A stretch of 5,679 nt of DNA from a virus. Lineage: Duplodnaviria > Heunggongvirae > Uroviricota > Caudoviricetes. The stretch lies in the IMG/VR virus record IMGVR_UViG_3300000357_000115, one strand, 5' to 3'. The notes under the pieces were generated by a model that did no database searches, had not been told where the DNA came from, and worked only from the letters and a program-made list of their open reading frames with translations. Below are positions 1 through 5,679 of this stretch, one piece after another; the first letter of the stretch is position 1, and every line of letters starts with the position of its first letter. A program made the position numbers and the translations under genes.

Positions 1-988
1 TGGACAAAATTACCGGAAAAACGCCGGTGGCGGCCTATGTCTCCCCGATCGTTGAAGGAAAAGTGCTTCGCCATCGCGGTGGTGAAACCCGCGTGTTACG
101 TCCGGGCTACGTCAAGCCCAAACACGAATTTAATTACCAGCAGGCGGTTGAGCTCCTTCCTGGTGAAGATCCGGCTCAGCTGAACGACCCGGCCTACCGT
201 CGTCTGCGTATCATTACCGATAACCTCAAACAGGAAGAGCACGCCATTGTCCAGGTGGAAGAAATGCAGGCGGTGAATGCCGTGCTGTATGGCAAATACA
301 CCATGGAAGGGGATCAGTTTGATACTGNNNNNNNNNNNNNNNNNNNNNNNNNNNNNNNNNNNNNNNNNNNNNNNNNNNNNNNNNNNNNNNNNNNNNNNNN
401 NNNNNNNNNNNNNNNNNNNNCGGGCGCTCTGAAGGAAATAACATTGAGCAGGCTGACGGTAAAAAATGGTCTGAGCAGGACCGTGATACGTTTGATCCGA
501 CGCATGATATTGACCTCTACTGCGATCAGGCCAGCGGCCTTGTGAATATCGCCATTATGGACGGTACGGTCTGGCGTCTGCTGAATGGCTTTAAGCTGTT
601 CCGCGAAAAACTGGATACCCGTCGCGGCTCAAATTCACAACTCGAAACGGCAGTGAAAGACCTGGGGGCGGTGGTGTCCTTCAAGGGGTATTACGGCGAT
701 CTGGCCATTGTGGTGGCGAAAACGTCTTATGTGGCAGAGGACGGTACCGAAAAACGTTATCTGCCGGAGGGCACACTGGTCCTGGGGAATACGGCAGCAG
801 AGGGCATTCGTTGCTATGGTGCCATTCAGGATGCGCAGGCGTTGTCCGAAGGTGTGGTGGCCTCTTCCCGTTATCCGAAACACTGGCTGACTGTGGGCGA
901 TCCGGCCCGTGAATTCACCATGACGCAGTCCGCACCGCTGATGGTGCTGCCGGATCCGGATGAGTTTGTGGTGGTACAGGTGAAATAA
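1..988 (+). CDS. E: Major capsid protein, lambda gpE-like (5'-partial; continues upstream of window; interrupted by N gap 328-420 with apparent frame change)
   Basis: Translation from position 3 (frame of ORF 27..545) gives DKITGKTPVAAYVSPIVEGKV...GYVKPKHE...DPAYRRLRII...VEEMQAVNAVLYGKYTM, and after the gap (frame of ORF 542..988, readable from 422) GRSEGNNIEQ...FREKLDTRRGSNSQLETAVKDLG...RYPKHWLTVGDPAREFTMTQSAPLMVLPDPDEFVVVQVK, ending at TAA 986-988. These motifs match my recollection of lambda gpE nearly residue for residue. GTG at 27 is internal, not the start. Confidence 0.9.
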
Positions 989-1423: not shown

Positions 1424-1769
1424 TTTTCAGAATGCCTTTGATGCTGCCCTTGCCGGGGTGGACAGCACGATTGTTGAAGTGATGGGGCTCTGTGCGCAGT
1501 TCACCTCGGGAGCACAGCGTGGAAGCGAAGTTCAGGGGGTTTTTGACGATCCGGAGTCGCTGGGTTTTGCCGGTGGCGGGGTCCGTATTGAAGGAAGCAG
1601 CCCGTCATTATTTGTGCGGACGGATACGGTGCGTGCCGTGCGGCGTGGTGACACGCTGACCATTAACGGCGAGATGTTCTGGGTGGATCGTGTTTCTCCG
1701 GATGACGGGGGCAGCTGTTATCTCTGGCTCAACCGTGGGCAACCACCCGCTGTTAACCGGCGACGATAA
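1416..1769 (+). CDS. FII: Head-tail joining protein, lambda gpFII-like (117 aa)
   Basis: Protein MRDFQNAFDAALAGVD...GVFDDPESLGFAGGGVRIEGSSPSLFVRTDTVRAVRRGDTLTINGEMFWVDRVSPDDGGSCYLWLNRGQPPAVNRRR matches lambda gpFII closely as I recall it, including the identical length of 117 aa and the C-terminal PPAVNRRR. The start ATG 1416 overlaps the FI stop (ATGCGTGA, 8-nt overlap). Confidence 0.9.
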   Translation: MRDFQNAFDAALAGVDSTIVEVMGLCAQFTSGAQRGSEVQGVFDDPESLGFAGGGVRIEGSSPSLFVRTDTVRAVRRGDTLTINGEMFWVDRVSPDDGGSCYLWLNRGQPPAVNRRR

Positions 1770-2881: not shown

Positions 2882-3800
2882 ATGGCAACACCAAATCCCC
2901 TTGAGCCGGTAAAAGGTGCCGGTACCACTCTGTGGGTTTACAACGGCAAGGCTGATGCTTATGCAAACCCGTTGTCAGACGATGGCTGGCAGCGACTGGC
3001 TAAGGTGAAGGATCTGACGCCGGGCGAGATGACGGCTGAACCCTANNNNNNNNNNNNNNNNNNNNNNNNNNNNNNNNNNNNNNNNNNNNNNNNNNNNNNN
3101 NNNNNNNNNNNNNNNNNNNNNNNNNNNNNNNNNNNNNNNNNNNNNNGGATGATGAAGACGCGGACTGGACCGCGACCGGGCAGGGACAGAAATCTGCAGG
3201 TGATACCAGTTTTACGCTGGCCTGGAAACCGGGAGAGGAAGGTCAGAAAGGGCTTATAGGCTGGTTTGAAAGCGGCGANNNNNNNNNNNNNNNNNNNNNN
3301 NNNNNNNNNNNNNNNNNNNNNNNNNNNNNNNNNNNNNNNNNNNNNNNNNNNNNNNNNNNNNNNNNNNNNNNGCCTATAAAATCCGTTTTCCGAATGGCAC
3401 GGTGGATGTGTTTCGTGGCTGGGTCAGCAGTATCGGTAAGGCCGTGACGGCGAAAGAAGTGATCACCCGCACGGTGAAAGTCACTAACGTGGGTAAACCT
3501 TCTGTAGCGGAAGAACGCAGCAAAATTACGCCGGTCACTGCGATTAAGGTAACGCCGACAGGTACGGTTGAAAAAGGGAAAACAACCACCCTGACCGTTA
3601 CTGTGGAACCGGAAAATGCAACGGATAAGACATTCAGGGCGATTTCCGCCGATCCATCAAAAGCCACCATTAGCGTGAAAGATATGACGATTACTGTGAC
3701 GGGGGTTAAGGATGGAAAAGTCAGCATCCCTGTGATTTCCGGTAATGGTCAGTTTGCTGCGGTGGCTGAAATTACCGTTAATAATGTGCCGGGTGGCTAA
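2882..3800 (+). CDS. V: Major tail tube protein, lambda gpV-like, with C-terminal Ig-like (Big_2-type) domain (interrupted by N gaps 3046-3146 and 3279-3371; frame changes across both)
   Basis: ATG 2882 preceded by GAGGA. N-terminus [53 protein letters not shown]; middle segment (frame from 3148) [44 protein letters not shown]; C-terminal segment (from 3372) [44 protein letters not shown]...[17 protein letters not shown], stop TAA 3798-3800. All match my recollection of lambda gpV. Confidence 0.92.
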
Positions 3801-3818
3801 AGAGCTGAGAGATAAGCG

Positions 3819-4250
3819 ATGTTCCTGAAAACAGAACAATTTGAATATAACGGTGTATCCGTCACGCTTTCTGAGCTGTCTGCGCTGCAGCGTATTGAGC
3901 ATCTTGCCCTCCTGAAACGGCGGGCAGAAGAGGCTGAAGCCAGCGGCAACCTGCAGGTGAGTGTGGAAGATCTTGTCAGAACCGGCGCGTTTCTGGTGGC
4001 GATGTCCCTGTGGCATAACCATCCACAGAAAACGCAGTCACCGTCAATGAATGAGGCCGTGATGAAGATAGAGCAGGAAGTGCTCACCACCTGGCCTGCC
4101 GATGCCATTGCCCGGGCGGAAGACGTGGTGTTGTGCCTGTCCGGGATGATCGAAGCTGTTCGTCCGGATACTGATATTACTGAAGTGGCGAAAAATAACA
4201 CGCTGACTGATGATGATTTTTCTGCGGGAAAGTCTTCGACGGCGAGCTGA
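3819..4250 (+). CDS. G: Tail assembly chaperone, lambda gpG-like (143 aa)
   Basis: Protein MFLKTEQFEYNGVSVTLSELSALQRIEHLALLKRRAEEAEASGN...GAFLVAMSLWHNHPQKTQSPSMNEAVMKIEQEVLTTWP...SAGKSSTAS matches lambda gpG as I recall it. It ends at TGA 4248-4250, shortly after the slippery heptamer. Confidence 0.92.
   Translation: MFLKTEQFEYNGVSVTLSELSALQRIEHLALLKRRAEEAEASGNLQVSVEDLVRTGAFLVAMSLWHNHPQKTQSPSMNEAVMKIEQEVLTTWPADAIARAEDVVLCLSGMIEAVRPDTDITEVAKNNTLTDDDFSAGKSSTAS
4226..4232 (+). other. Programmed -1 ribosomal frameshift slippery heptamer G GGA AAG (G to G-T fusion)
   Basis: In the G frame the codons are GCG GGA AAG (A-G-K), so the heptamer G_GGA_AAG is in the canonical X_XXY_YYZ register at 4226-4232, 16 nt before the G stop. 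The -1 frame from here reads GKVFDGELNFALRLAREMGRPDWRAMLAGM..., which is the gpT reading frame. Confidence 0.85.
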
Positions 4251-4644
4251 ACTTTGCCCTCAGACTGGCGCGTGAGATGGGGAGACCCGACTGGCGCGCC
4301 ATGCTTGCCGGGATGACATCCACCGAATATGCCGACTGGCACCGTTTTTACCGCACGCATTATTTTCAGGATACCCAGCTGGATATGCATTTTTCCGGGC
4401 TGACGTACGCTGTACTCAGCCTGTTTTTTTGCGATCCGGATATGCATCCCTCTGATTTCAGTCTGCTTGTCCCCCGGCATGAGGAAGAACAGGTGGAGAG
4501 GCCGGATGAGGACAAAATGCTGATGCAGAAAGCGGCAGGACTTGCCGGAGGCGTCCGGTTCGGTGGGGACGGAGGGCGCGATATTTTATCGTCTGCGGAT
4601 GTGGCGGATGTCATGGTGGATGATGCCGCATTAATGATGGCTTC
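4226..4644 (+). CDS. T: Tail assembly chaperone gpT-like -1 frame extension, expressed only as G-T fusion (3' end lost in N gap 4645-4752)
   Basis: The -1 frame continuing from the slippery site encodes ...LNFALRLAREMGRPDWRAMLAGMTSTEYADWHRFYRTHYFQDTQLDMHFSGLTYAVLSLFFCDPDMHPSDFSLL...LMQKAAGLAGGVRFG...DVADVMVDDAALMMA, matching my recollection of lambda gpT. No RBS or independent start is needed; the ATG at 4277 used in the ORF track is internal. The stop is not visible because of the gap. Confidence 0.8.
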
Positions 4645-4753
4645 NNNNNNNNNNNNNNNNNNNNNNNNNNNNNNNNNNNNNNNNNNNNNNNNNNNNNNNN
4701 NNNNNNNNNNNNNNNNNNNNNNNNNNNNNNNNNNNNNNNNNNNNNNNNNNNNT

Positions 4754-5679
4754 ATGTCCCAGCCGGTTGGTGATCTTGTTATTGACCTTAGTCTGGATGC
4801 TGTCCGTTTCGATGAGCAGATGAGCCGGGTAAGGCGTCATTTTTCAGGTCTGGATACCGACGCCAGAAAAACCGCCAGTGCTGTTGAACAGGGCCTGAGC
4901 CGCCAGGCGCTGGCTGCACAAAAAGCAGGGATTTCCGTCGGGCAGTATAAAGCGGCCATGCGAACCCTGCCCGCACAGTTTACGGATATCGCCACGCAGC
5001 TTGCCGGTGGTCAGAATCCCTGGCTGATCCTGCTGCAACAAGGCGGTCAGGTGAAGGACTCCTTCGGCGGGATGATCCCCATGTTCAGGGGGCTTGCCGG
5101 TGCGATCACCCTGCCGATGGTCGGGGTCACCTCGCTGGCGGTGGCGACAGGTGCGCTGGTGTACGCCTGGTACCAGGGAGATTCCACGCTTTCAGCGTTT
5201 AATAAAACCCTGGTTCTTTCCGGTAATCAGTCCGGACTGACTGCCGATCGCATGCTGACGCTCTCCAGAGCCGGACAGGCCGCAGGGCTGACGTTTAACC
5301 AGGCGAGTGAGTCACTGGCAGCCATGGTGAATGCCGGTGTGCGTGGTGGTGAACAGTTTGATGCCATCAACCAGAGTGTCGCGCGTTTTGCTTCTGCATC
5401 CGGTGTGGAGGTGGACAAGGTTGCAGAGGCTTTNNNNNNNNNNNNNNNNNNNNNNNNNNNNNNNNNNNNNNNNNNNNNNNNNNNNNNNNNNNNNNNNNNN
5501 NNNNNNNNNNNNNNNNNNNNNNNNNNNNNNNNNNNNNNNNNNNNNNNNNNNNNNNNNNNNNNNNNNNNNNNNNNNNNNNNNNNNNNNNNNNNNNNNNNNN
5601 NNNNNNNNNNNNNNNNNNNNNNNNACCGGGGCATTGCAGGCGGCGAACGAGGCCGCAACGAAAGGGTTTGATGACCAGA
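4754..5679 (+). CDS. H: Tail tape measure protein, lambda gpH-like (3'-partial; continues beyond window; N gap 5434-5624 with frame change)
   Basis: ATG 4754 gives MSQPVGDLVIDLSLDAVRFDEQMSRVRRHFSG...QKAGISVGQYKAAMRTLPAQFTDIATQLAGGQNPWLILLQQGGQVKDSFGGMIPMFRGLAGAITLPMVGVTSLAVATGALVYAWYQGDSTLSAFNKTLVLSGNQSGLTADRMLTLSRAGQAAGLTFNQ...GVEVDKVAEAF. After the gap (frame from 5625): TGALQAANEAATKGFDDQ. Both segments match the lambda gpH N-terminal region as I recall it. Confidence 0.9.

What the first reader, a model, noticed from the sequence alone, without database searches (positions are those of the whole stretch)
4226..4250. Conserved G GGA AAG -1 programmed frameshift site producing the G-T tail chaperone fusion
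The slippery heptamer is in the correct register of the G frame, 16 nt before the G stop, and the -1 frame continues as a gpT-like sequence with no start codon of its own. This is the lambda G/GT recoding mechanism, conserved across long-tailed phages, that fixes the G:GT ratio needed for tape-measure-directed tail assembly. It would be missed by standard ORF calling, as the provided track shows by starting 'T' at an internal ATG at 4277.
Basis: partly seen in the sequence, partly recalled or inferred. Interest (0 to 1): 0.45.

Follow-up and report, generated by a model that had tools for sequence, protein, structure and literature searches.

The report
Lambda-type G/GT tail chaperone frameshift site
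This is the textbook ribosomal frameshift site of lambda-like phages, here in an E. coli prophage, that lets a few ribosomes slip back one base to make a G-T fusion protein needed for tail assembly; it is real but already well known.

Summary
GGGAAAG lies at 4226-4232, in the register G GGA AAG of the gpG ORF (3819-4250), five codons before the G stop. It sits inside the only 31 nt where a -1 shift gives a long product. The -1 frame has no ATG, GTG or TTG before 4277. It encodes a gpT homologue (Pfam PF06223), and G is PF06894. The pair lies between the tail tube gene V and the tape-measure gene H.

The unmasked parts of the window match an E. coli CFT073 prophage exactly, apart from one mismatch in H. 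The G-T region is 98.4% identical to phage PhiR12_1 and about 78% identical to lambda, with the same 15-nt block around the site.

In 62 distinct relatives the AAA of the motif is invariant. The -1 frame protein is conserved from the slip site onward, including 15 residues upstream of ATG 4277. That ATG is a Phe codon in 8 of the 13 relatives aligned as protein.

So this is the lambda G/GT -1 programmed frameshift: already known and low interest.

Side points:
- The N runs in the window do not preserve length, so the listed T-H fusion ORF is an artefact. The true T stop is at 4771-4773.
- A predicted stem starts 7 nt after the site. It is only weakly supported by comparison with relatives.

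The parts
3819..4250 (+). Gene G (tail assembly / tape-measure chaperone gpG), 143 aa, zero frame
   Evidence: ORF and translation. Pfam PF06894 E 3.5e-51. Annotated 'phage tail assembly chaperone G' in the identical CFT073 sequence.
4226..4232 (+). Slippery heptamer G GGA AAG, the -1 programmed ribosomal frameshift site
   Evidence: Single copy, in register. Identical to lambda's site. AAA is invariant across 62 relatives.
4217..4247 (+). G/T overlap: the only stretch where the -1 frame is open while G is still being read
   Evidence: Three -1 frame stops end at 4216 and the G stop starts at 4248.
4232..4644 (+). T segment read in the -1 frame after the shift (VFDGELNF...), up to the N run at 4645-4752
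   Evidence: Translation. Pfam PF06223 E 3.4e-14. Protein conserved from the slip site on. No start codon before 4277.
4753..4773 (+). Last codons of T (YVPAGW) and the T stop TGA at 4771-4773, after the mask. The reading frame here differs from the pre-mask numbering because 108 N replace 26 real bases.
   Evidence: Mapping to CFT073 L006. The reconstructed GT is 290 aa.
2882..3800 (+). Gene V (major tail tube protein with C-terminal Ig-like Big_2 domain), interrupted by two N runs; upstream neighbour
   Evidence: Pfam PF16461 and PF02368. CFT073 annotation.
4754..5679 (+). 5' part of gene H (tail length tape-measure protein), downstream neighbour and binding partner of G/GT in lambda
   Evidence: Pfam PF06791 E 2.8e-59. 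CFT073 annotation.
4240..4310 (+). Predicted RNA structure starting 7 nt 3' of the heptamer: outer stem 4240-4247 with 4303-4310, inner hairpin 4266-4301. It is a possible stimulator only and is not established.
   Evidence: MFE -38.2 kcal/mol, z -3.5. On 62 relatives 73% of cells are paired, against 24-45% for slid controls. Pair 28-96 is AU 21, GC 17, CG 4. The two most distant phage relatives in the 13-sequence set, mEp460 and Gifsy-2, break the inner stem. The structure was derived from the window sequence, which biases the test.

Best explanation
This is the G/GT tail-assembly-chaperone recoding site of a lambda-like prophage of E. coli.

Most ribosomes translating gene G read ...GCG GGA AAG TCT TCG ACG GCG AGC TGA and release the 143-aa gpG. 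A small fraction slip back one base while tRNA-Gly and tRNA-Lys occupy GGA AAG. The tRNAs re-pair with GGG AAA, and translation continues at GTC (4232) in the -1 frame. This yields a 290-aa GT fusion (...SAGK-VFDGELNF...) that ends at TGA 4771-4773.

By analogy with lambda, the G part of both proteins coats the tape-measure protein H. The rare T domain recruits the tail tube protein V. The slip frequency sets the G:GT ratio (about 30:1 in lambda) that is needed for correct tail assembly. Neither protein ends up in the virion.

Shown here: the sequence anatomy, the homology, the synteny and the comparative conservation.

Inferred from lambda experiments: that the shift actually occurs, its efficiency, and the chaperone roles.
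For: Anatomy:
- The heptamer is in register inside the 31-nt productive overlap.
- The chance of any in-register heptamer there is about 2%, and this is the only X_XXA_AAG in 12 genes.

Homology and context:
- G matches PF06894 and the -1 part matches PF06223.
- PHROG 32165, a 290-position profile, matches G over positions 1-142 and the T part over 140-275.
- The gene order V-G-T-H holds.

Closeness to lambda:
- The block TTTCTGCGGGAAAGT is identical to lambda, although the G sequence just upstream is diverged with indels.

Conservation:
- All 15 sequences analysed (the window, 13 phages and the CFT073 prophage), and the genome loci where both ORFs are intact, have G and T in the 0 and -1 frames, with a Lys-codon slip motif at the same aligned position. 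The motifs are GGGAAAG, GGAAAAG, AAAAAAG, GGTAAAG and GGCAAAA.
- Residues K2, E7, F10, L14, A15, R16 and E17 of the -1 product are invariant. All lie upstream of ATG 4277.
- That ATG is TTC (Phe) in 8 of the 13 relatives aligned as protein.

No independent start:
- There is no properly spaced Shine-Dalgarno sequence before ATG 4277.

Function in a near-identical sequence:
- The deposited phage genome PhiR12_1 (host listed as E. coli K-12 MG1655) carries a G-T region that is 98.4% identical overall and identical from the heptamer to the mask.

Literature:
- Lambda G_GGA_AAG -1 frameshifting occurs at about 4% and gives a 30:1 ratio required for tail assembly. It depends on the modification state of tRNA-Lys (PMC3296357, PMC5009743, PMC7618472).
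- G_GGA_AAG is highly shift-prone in E. coli (PMC5009743, citing Sharma et al. 2014).
Against: No expression or protein data exist for this locus. Frameshift efficiency cannot be computed. The middle of the T C-terminus (26 real bases) is masked in the window and had to be read from the identical CFT073 sequence. The element sits in a prophage whose inducibility is unknown. No stimulatory element could be established.
Confidence: 0.95

Rival explanations
1. T is made as a separate protein by ordinary initiation at ATG 4277, as RefSeq/PGAP annotates, and the heptamer is incidental.
For: ATG 4277 exists in the T frame. Automatic annotation of CFT073 and PhiR12_1 starts T at an internal ATG.
Against: There is no properly spaced Shine-Dalgarno sequence: CTGGCGCGTGAG abuts the ATG. 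The ATG is a Phe codon in 8 of the 13 relatives aligned as protein. The 15 residues encoded upstream of it in the -1 frame are conserved as protein, seven of them invariant, which ordinary initiation at 4277 cannot explain. In lambda, T sequences are produced as the GT fusion (PMC5009743).
Confidence: 0.03
2. The frame change is achieved mainly by slippage of the single A-site tRNA-Lys on A_AAG, not by tandem slippage of two tRNAs. The GGG part of the heptamer is then an enhancer rather than a requirement.
For: Most relatives carry only G_GAA_AAG or G_GTA_AAG, where the P-site tRNA cannot re-pair well. AAA is the only invariant part of the motif. Z_ZZN tetramers are recognised -1 motifs in E. 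coli (abstract of PMC4066793, shown).
Against: In this window the full X_XXY_YYZ heptamer is present and identical to lambda's, so tandem re-pairing is available. G_GGA_AAG is reported as highly shift-prone as a heptamer (PMC5009743). This is a refinement of the same mechanism, not a different function.
Confidence: 0.2
3. The G and T frames are joined by transcriptional (RNA polymerase) slippage, or the arrangement is simply a frameshift mutation in a decaying prophage.
For: The locus is a prophage. One relative fetched (Shigella flexneri L069) has truncated G and T ORFs.
Against: The A run is only three bases, far shorter than the long homopolymer runs at known RNA polymerase slippage sites (my own knowledge). 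The same two-frame arrangement is present in lambda, phage 21, HK225, mEp213 and other sequenced phages, and in dozens of genera, so it is not a recent mutation.
Confidence: 0.01

Closest known systems
Bacteriophage lambda G / GT -1 programmed frameshift (Levin, Hendrix & Casjens 1993; Xu, Hendrix & Duda 2004, 2013, 2014)
   Same: Same heptamer G_GGA_AAG, same register, and the same 15-nt spacing to a TGA stop. The 15-nt block TTTCTGCGGGAAAGT is identical. The Pfam families (PF06894, PF06223) and the V-G-T-H order are the same.
   Different: About 78% nucleotide identity overall. G is 143 aa against 140, with a diverged C-terminal linker containing indels. GT is 290 aa against 279. The codon after the slip is GTC, not GTG, so even the spurious GTG 'start' used for T in the old lambda annotation is absent. 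T overlaps H by 20 nt against 8 nt.
G/GT sites of the HK225 / mEp213 / LLS group (HK225's genes are annotated as similar to phage N15) and of Gifsy-2
   Same: Homologous G and T, the same aligned slip position, the same A-site Lys codon AAG, and a downstream -1 ORF without a start.
   Different: The motif is G_GAA_AAG (annotated as such in phage LLS), not a full X_XXY_YYZ heptamer. In some relatives the stop is only 3 nt, or 0 nt, after the motif. The T protein lacks the roughly 35-aa C-terminal extension.
Lactococcus phage TP901-1 gpG/gpT
   Same: It uses GGGAAAG at the 3' end of gpG for a -1 shift. Mutating the site abolishes tails, and permanent fusion gives non-infectious particles (PMC4493119).
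   Different: A Gram-positive phage. Homology to this locus was not tested here.
E. coli dnaX -1 frameshift (A_AAA_AAG)
   Same: The same class of -1 slippage on a Lys AAG codon, read by the single E. coli tRNA-Lys.
   Different: From my own knowledge, dnaX has an upstream Shine-Dalgarno-like stimulator and a downstream stem-loop, shifts at about 50%, and gives a shorter product. Here no upstream SD-like element is present, only a tentative downstream structure exists, and the product is longer.

Membership tests
Lambda-type G/GT tail assembly chaperone frameshift | Two ORFs between the major tail (tube) gene and the tape-measure gene | tested here: met
   V (PF16461 and Big_2) lies upstream and H (PF06791) downstream. 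The CFT073 annotation gives the same order.
Lambda-type G/GT tail assembly chaperone frameshift | The downstream ORF is in the -1 frame relative to the upstream one, overlaps its 3' end, and lacks its own start codon near its opening | tested here: met
   The -1 frame opens at 4217 and the G stop is at 4248. The first ATG/GTG/TTG is at 4277.
Lambda-type G/GT tail assembly chaperone frameshift | A slippery motif (X_XXY_YYZ, or at least Z_ZZN) in the zero-frame register inside the overlap | tested here: met
   G_GGA_AAG at 4226-4232. The chance of any such heptamer there is about 2%.
Lambda-type G/GT tail assembly chaperone frameshift | Sequence homology to gpG and gpT | tested here: met
   PF06894 E 3.5e-51 and PF06223 E 3.4e-14. 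PHROG 32165 matches both parts. The T part is 76% identical to lambda's.
Lambda-type G/GT tail assembly chaperone frameshift | Conservation of the site and of the -1 frame protein across relatives | tested here: met
   AAA is invariant in 62 distinct sequences. Seven invariant residues lie between the slip site and the first ATG.
Lambda-type G/GT tail assembly chaperone frameshift | A GT fusion protein is actually produced at a few per cent of G | not testable with these tools
   Needs western blot, mass spectrometry or a reporter assay. Established only for lambda (PMC3296357, PMC5009743).
Lambda-type G/GT tail assembly chaperone frameshift | G and GT are required for tail assembly, bind the tape-measure and tube proteins, and are absent from virions | not testable with these tools
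   Inferred from lambda (PMC5009743) and TP901-1 (PMC4493119).
-1 PRF sites with a 3' RNA stimulator (dnaX / IS3 type) | A conserved stem-loop or pseudoknot 5-9 nt downstream, supported by covariation | tested here: inconclusive
   A predicted stem starts 7 nt downstream, z -3.5. On relatives, 73% of cells are paired and a few pairs covary. However, 26% of cells are unpaired, the most distant phage relatives break the inner stem, and the structure was derived from the window itself. No Rfam family matches.

The most novel reading that the evidence does not exclude
The predicted structure at 4240-4310 starts 7 nt after the heptamer, and its outer stem shows GC/AU/CG exchanges at one pair across relatives. 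It could be a genuine, conserved 3' stimulator that tunes the G:GT ratio in the lambda/N15 family. No stimulator for this site came up in the reviews I consulted, though I did not search them specifically for one.
Probability: 0.15. Interest if true: 0.3.

Novelty: already known. Interest (0 to 1): 0.1.

Why it matters
The main value is for annotation. Automatic pipelines still call T from an internal ATG and omit the slippage join (CFT073 in RefSeq, PhiR12_1 in GenBank). They therefore lose the real 290-aa GT product and 15 conserved residues. Biologically, the site sets the chaperone ratio needed to build a tail of the right length, and this is already textbook knowledge for lambda. Nothing here changes that picture.

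Tried and rejected
- Rfam scan of the whole window at E<=1 gave only two sub-threshold chance hits (a miRNA and a lncRNA). No frameshift element family matched.
- The downstream RNA structure is favourable in the window, but the comparative tests are only suggestive. I rejected it as an established part of the signal.
- An upstream Shine-Dalgarno-like stimulator is absent from the 24 nt before the heptamer.
- Independent initiation of T at ATG 4277 was rejected.
- I tried to identify the window's source contig. E. albertii L017 matches the T protein at 100% but differs elsewhere. The CFT073 prophage matches all unmasked segments, with one mismatch.
- Xu et al. 2013 (PMC3762263) is not held in the library. 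Levin et al. 1993 and Xu et al. 2004 could not be read either. Statements about them rest on reviews that cite them.
- The other in-register heptamers in neighbouring genes (1562 GGGTTTT, 2287 AAAAAAC) lead to -1 ORFs of only 9 and 19 codons and were dismissed.

Full report
**Observation**

The heptamer GGGAAAG is present once in the window, at 4226-4232 on the + strand. On composition alone about 0.8 copies per window are expected, so the bare motif means nothing. Its placement is what matters.

- The ORF that starts at ATG 3819 reads ...GCG GGA AAG TCT TCG ACG GCG AGC TGA and stops at 4248-4250. The heptamer is therefore in the X_XXY_YYZ register, G_GGA_AAG, five codons (15 nt) before the stop.
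- The -1 frame is blocked by three consecutive stop codons up to 4216 and opens at 4217. A -1 shift can give a long product only within 4217-4247, which offers nine register positions.
- In the 12 genes of the identical CFT073 block, in-register X_XXY_YYZ heptamers occur at 6 of 2707 codon positions. That gives about a 2% chance of one falling in the overlap.
- This is the only X_XXA_AAG heptamer in the block.
- Two other in-register heptamers in neighbouring genes (1562, 2287) hit -1 frame stops after 9 and 19 codons.

No ATG, GTG or TTG occurs in that frame before 4277.

**What the genes are**

- The zero-frame protein matches Pfam PF06894, lambda tail assembly chaperone G (E 3.5e-51). The -1 frame product matches PF06223, minor tail protein T (E 3.4e-14).
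- PHROG 32165, a 290-position profile, matches G over positions 1-142 and the T part over 140-275.
- Upstream lies the tail tube gene V (PF16461 plus a Big_2 Ig-like domain). Downstream lies the tape-measure gene H (PF06791).
- Further upstream are U, Z (annotated 'phage tail protein' in CFT073 and 'tail component protein Z' in PhiR12_1), FII, FI and the 3' part of the capsid gene E. This is the lambda late-gene order.

**Source and masks**

All unmasked segments of the window map exactly to the prophage at about 1.355-1.360 Mb of E. coli CFT073, with one mismatch at 5041.

- The G-T region is 98.4% identical to the deposited phage genome PhiR12_1 (host listed as E. coli K-12 MG1655) and about 78% identical to lambda.
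- Related G-T sequence is found in 3648 of 5426 complete E. coli genomes.
- The seven N runs do not preserve length. For example, 93 N stand for 13 real bases, and 108 N stand for 26. Reading frames therefore cannot be followed across them.
- The 464-aa ORF 4277-5671 in the mechanical list fuses T to H only because of this.
- Using the CFT073 bases for the masked 26 nt, T ends ...MMASAGIPGGVRYVPAGW at TGA 4771-4773. This overlaps the H start (ATG 4754) by 20 nt. The full GT product is 290 aa, against 279 aa in lambda.

**Comparative evidence**

Against lambda, the block TTTCTGCGGGAAAGT is identical. The G sequence immediately upstream is diverged with indels, and the T sequence downstream is about 90% identical.

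A tblastn search with the fused protein found 185 phage records. All but one of the 60 listed rows match in two pieces, that is, with a frame change at the junction; the Gifsy-2 row matched only the T part.

I fetched 13 phage loci and 79 loci from genomes of many Enterobacterales genera and analysed every junction mechanically. In an ungapped alignment of 62 distinct sequences:

- The AAA of the motif is invariant, and the flanking G residues are nearly so.
- The motif is GGGAAAG in the lambda type (which includes the window), GGAAAAG in the commonest type (HK225, mEp213, LLS), AAAAAAG in some Stx phages, GGTAAAG in Pantoea, and GGCAAAA or GGGAAAA in a few others.
- The zero-frame stop follows 0, 3 or 15 nt later.

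The translated -1 frame is conserved from the slip site onward. K2, E7, F10, L14, A15, R16 and E17 are invariant, and all lie upstream of the window's ATG 4277. That codon is Phe (TTC) in 8 of the 13 relatives aligned as protein. These residues can be under protein-level selection only if ribosomes enter the frame at or just before the motif. With no start codon available, a frameshift is the only route.

**Mechanism**

The G_GGA_AAG site in lambda G is an experimentally established -1 programmed ribosomal frameshift.

- About 4% of ribosomes shift, which gives a G:GT ratio of about 30:1 that is required for tail assembly.
- G and the G part of GT bind the tape-measure protein. The T domain recruits the tube protein. 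Neither protein is in the virion (PMC5009743, PMC3296357, PMC7618472).
- The shift depends on the single E. coli tRNA-Lys (mnm5s2UUU), and hypomodification raises slippage (PMC3296357).
- G_GGA_AAG is among the most shift-prone heptamers in E. coli (PMC5009743).

I infer the same mechanism and function here, with high confidence, because the site is identical and the proteins are close homologues in the same context. Nothing about expression was measured.

One mechanistic nuance comes from the family comparison. Only the A_AAG part is universally kept, so A-site tRNA-Lys slippage is probably the core event. The GGG that allows P-site re-pairing would then be an enhancer specific to the lambda type.

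**Stimulators**

No Shine-Dalgarno-like element lies in the 24 nt upstream of the heptamer.

Downstream, the window folds into a structure that begins 7 nt after the heptamer. It has an outer stem (4240-4247 with 4303-4310) and an inner GC-rich hairpin (4266-4301). Its energy is -38.2 kcal/mol with a z-score of -3.5.

- Across the 62 relatives, 73% of cells pair, against 24-45% for slid controls. One outer-stem pair alternates AU, GC and CG.
- Against this, a quarter of cells are unpaired. The two most distant phage relatives in the 13-sequence set, mEp460 and Gifsy-2, break the inner stem. The inner stem arises from the repeated, partly palindromic codons for LAR and WRA. The structure was also derived from the window itself, which inflates the comparison.

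I treat it as a lead, not a finding. Rfam has no matching family.

**Rivals**

- Independent initiation of T at ATG 4277 is what PGAP annotates. It is contradicted by the lack of a spaced ribosome-binding site, by the non-conservation of the ATG, and by the conserved residues upstream of it.
- Transcriptional slippage is implausible on a three-base A run.
- A decay mutation is excluded by the presence of the same arrangement in lambda, phage 21, HK225, mEp213 and other sequenced phages, and in dozens of genera.

**Verdict**

The feature is a standard member of the lambda G/GT frameshift family, with a slip site identical to the type example. It is already known. Its only practical interest is that routine annotation still misses the fusion product.

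Noticed in passing
window 328-420, 1849-1965, 2199-2284, 3046-3146, 3279-3371, 4645-4752, 5434-5624: The seven N runs are not length-preserving. Each of the six that could be measured is about 80-86 bases longer than the real sequence it replaces in the identical CFT073 prophage (for example 93 N for 13 bases, and 108 N for 26). They create apparent frame breaks in E, Z and V, and a false T-H fusion ORF at 4277-5671.
   Followed up: yes
window 4240-4310: A predicted stable RNA structure starts 7 nt after the slip site (z -3.5). It has partial comparative support: 73% of cells are paired in 62 relatives, and one pair alternates AU, GC and CG. It may tune the frameshift or may be a by-product of the conserved LAR / DWRA codons.
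   Followed up: partly
loci L019-L025, L027-L033, L049, L055, L073 (genome-contig hits): G-T sequences at lambda's level of similarity (nine checked are identical to lambda over 400 nt) appear in assemblies labelled Neobacillus, Oceanobacillus, Kitasatospora, Pseudomonas, Shewanella, Chromatium, Enterococcus, Paenibacillus and others, mostly on low-coverage contigs (cov about 1). This is almost certainly lambda DNA contamination of those assemblies, not real prophages.
   Followed up: partly
L082-L084, L086, L088, L090 (Ewingella, Kluyvera, Providencia, Proteus), aligned to window 4226-4235: In these relatives the zero-frame stop (TAG or TAA) immediately follows the Lys codon of the slip motif (for example GGC AAA A|TAG). 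This suggests P-site slippage next to a stop codon rather than tandem slippage. Pantoea relatives use G_GTA_AAG.
   Followed up: no
window 4150-4225 versus lambda (alignment A1 columns 330-400): The last 25 or so codons of G before the slip site are very divergent, with indels, between this prophage and lambda. Identity becomes perfect 9 nt before the heptamer. This suggests a variable linker, or a recombination boundary, abutting the conserved recoding signal.
   Followed up: no
window 4560-4644 and 4753-4773; alignment A3 columns 105-154: Lambda-type T proteins, including this one, carry a C-terminal extension of about 35 aa that ends in a second copy of the GGVR(F/Y) motif. The shorter T proteins of the HK225/mEp213 type have the motif only once. 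T overlaps the H start by 20 nt here, against 8 nt in lambda.
   Followed up: no
window 3797-4480, minus strand: A 227-aa antisense ORF spans the whole G gene and the start of T. No evidence of coding was sought, and it is probably a by-product of the codon composition of the sense genes.
   Followed up: no
window 1562-1568 (FII) and 2287-2293 (Z): Two other in-register slippery heptamers (G_GGT_TTT and A_AAA_AAC) lie in neighbouring genes. Their -1 frames stop after 9 and 19 codons, so they look incidental.
   Followed up: yes
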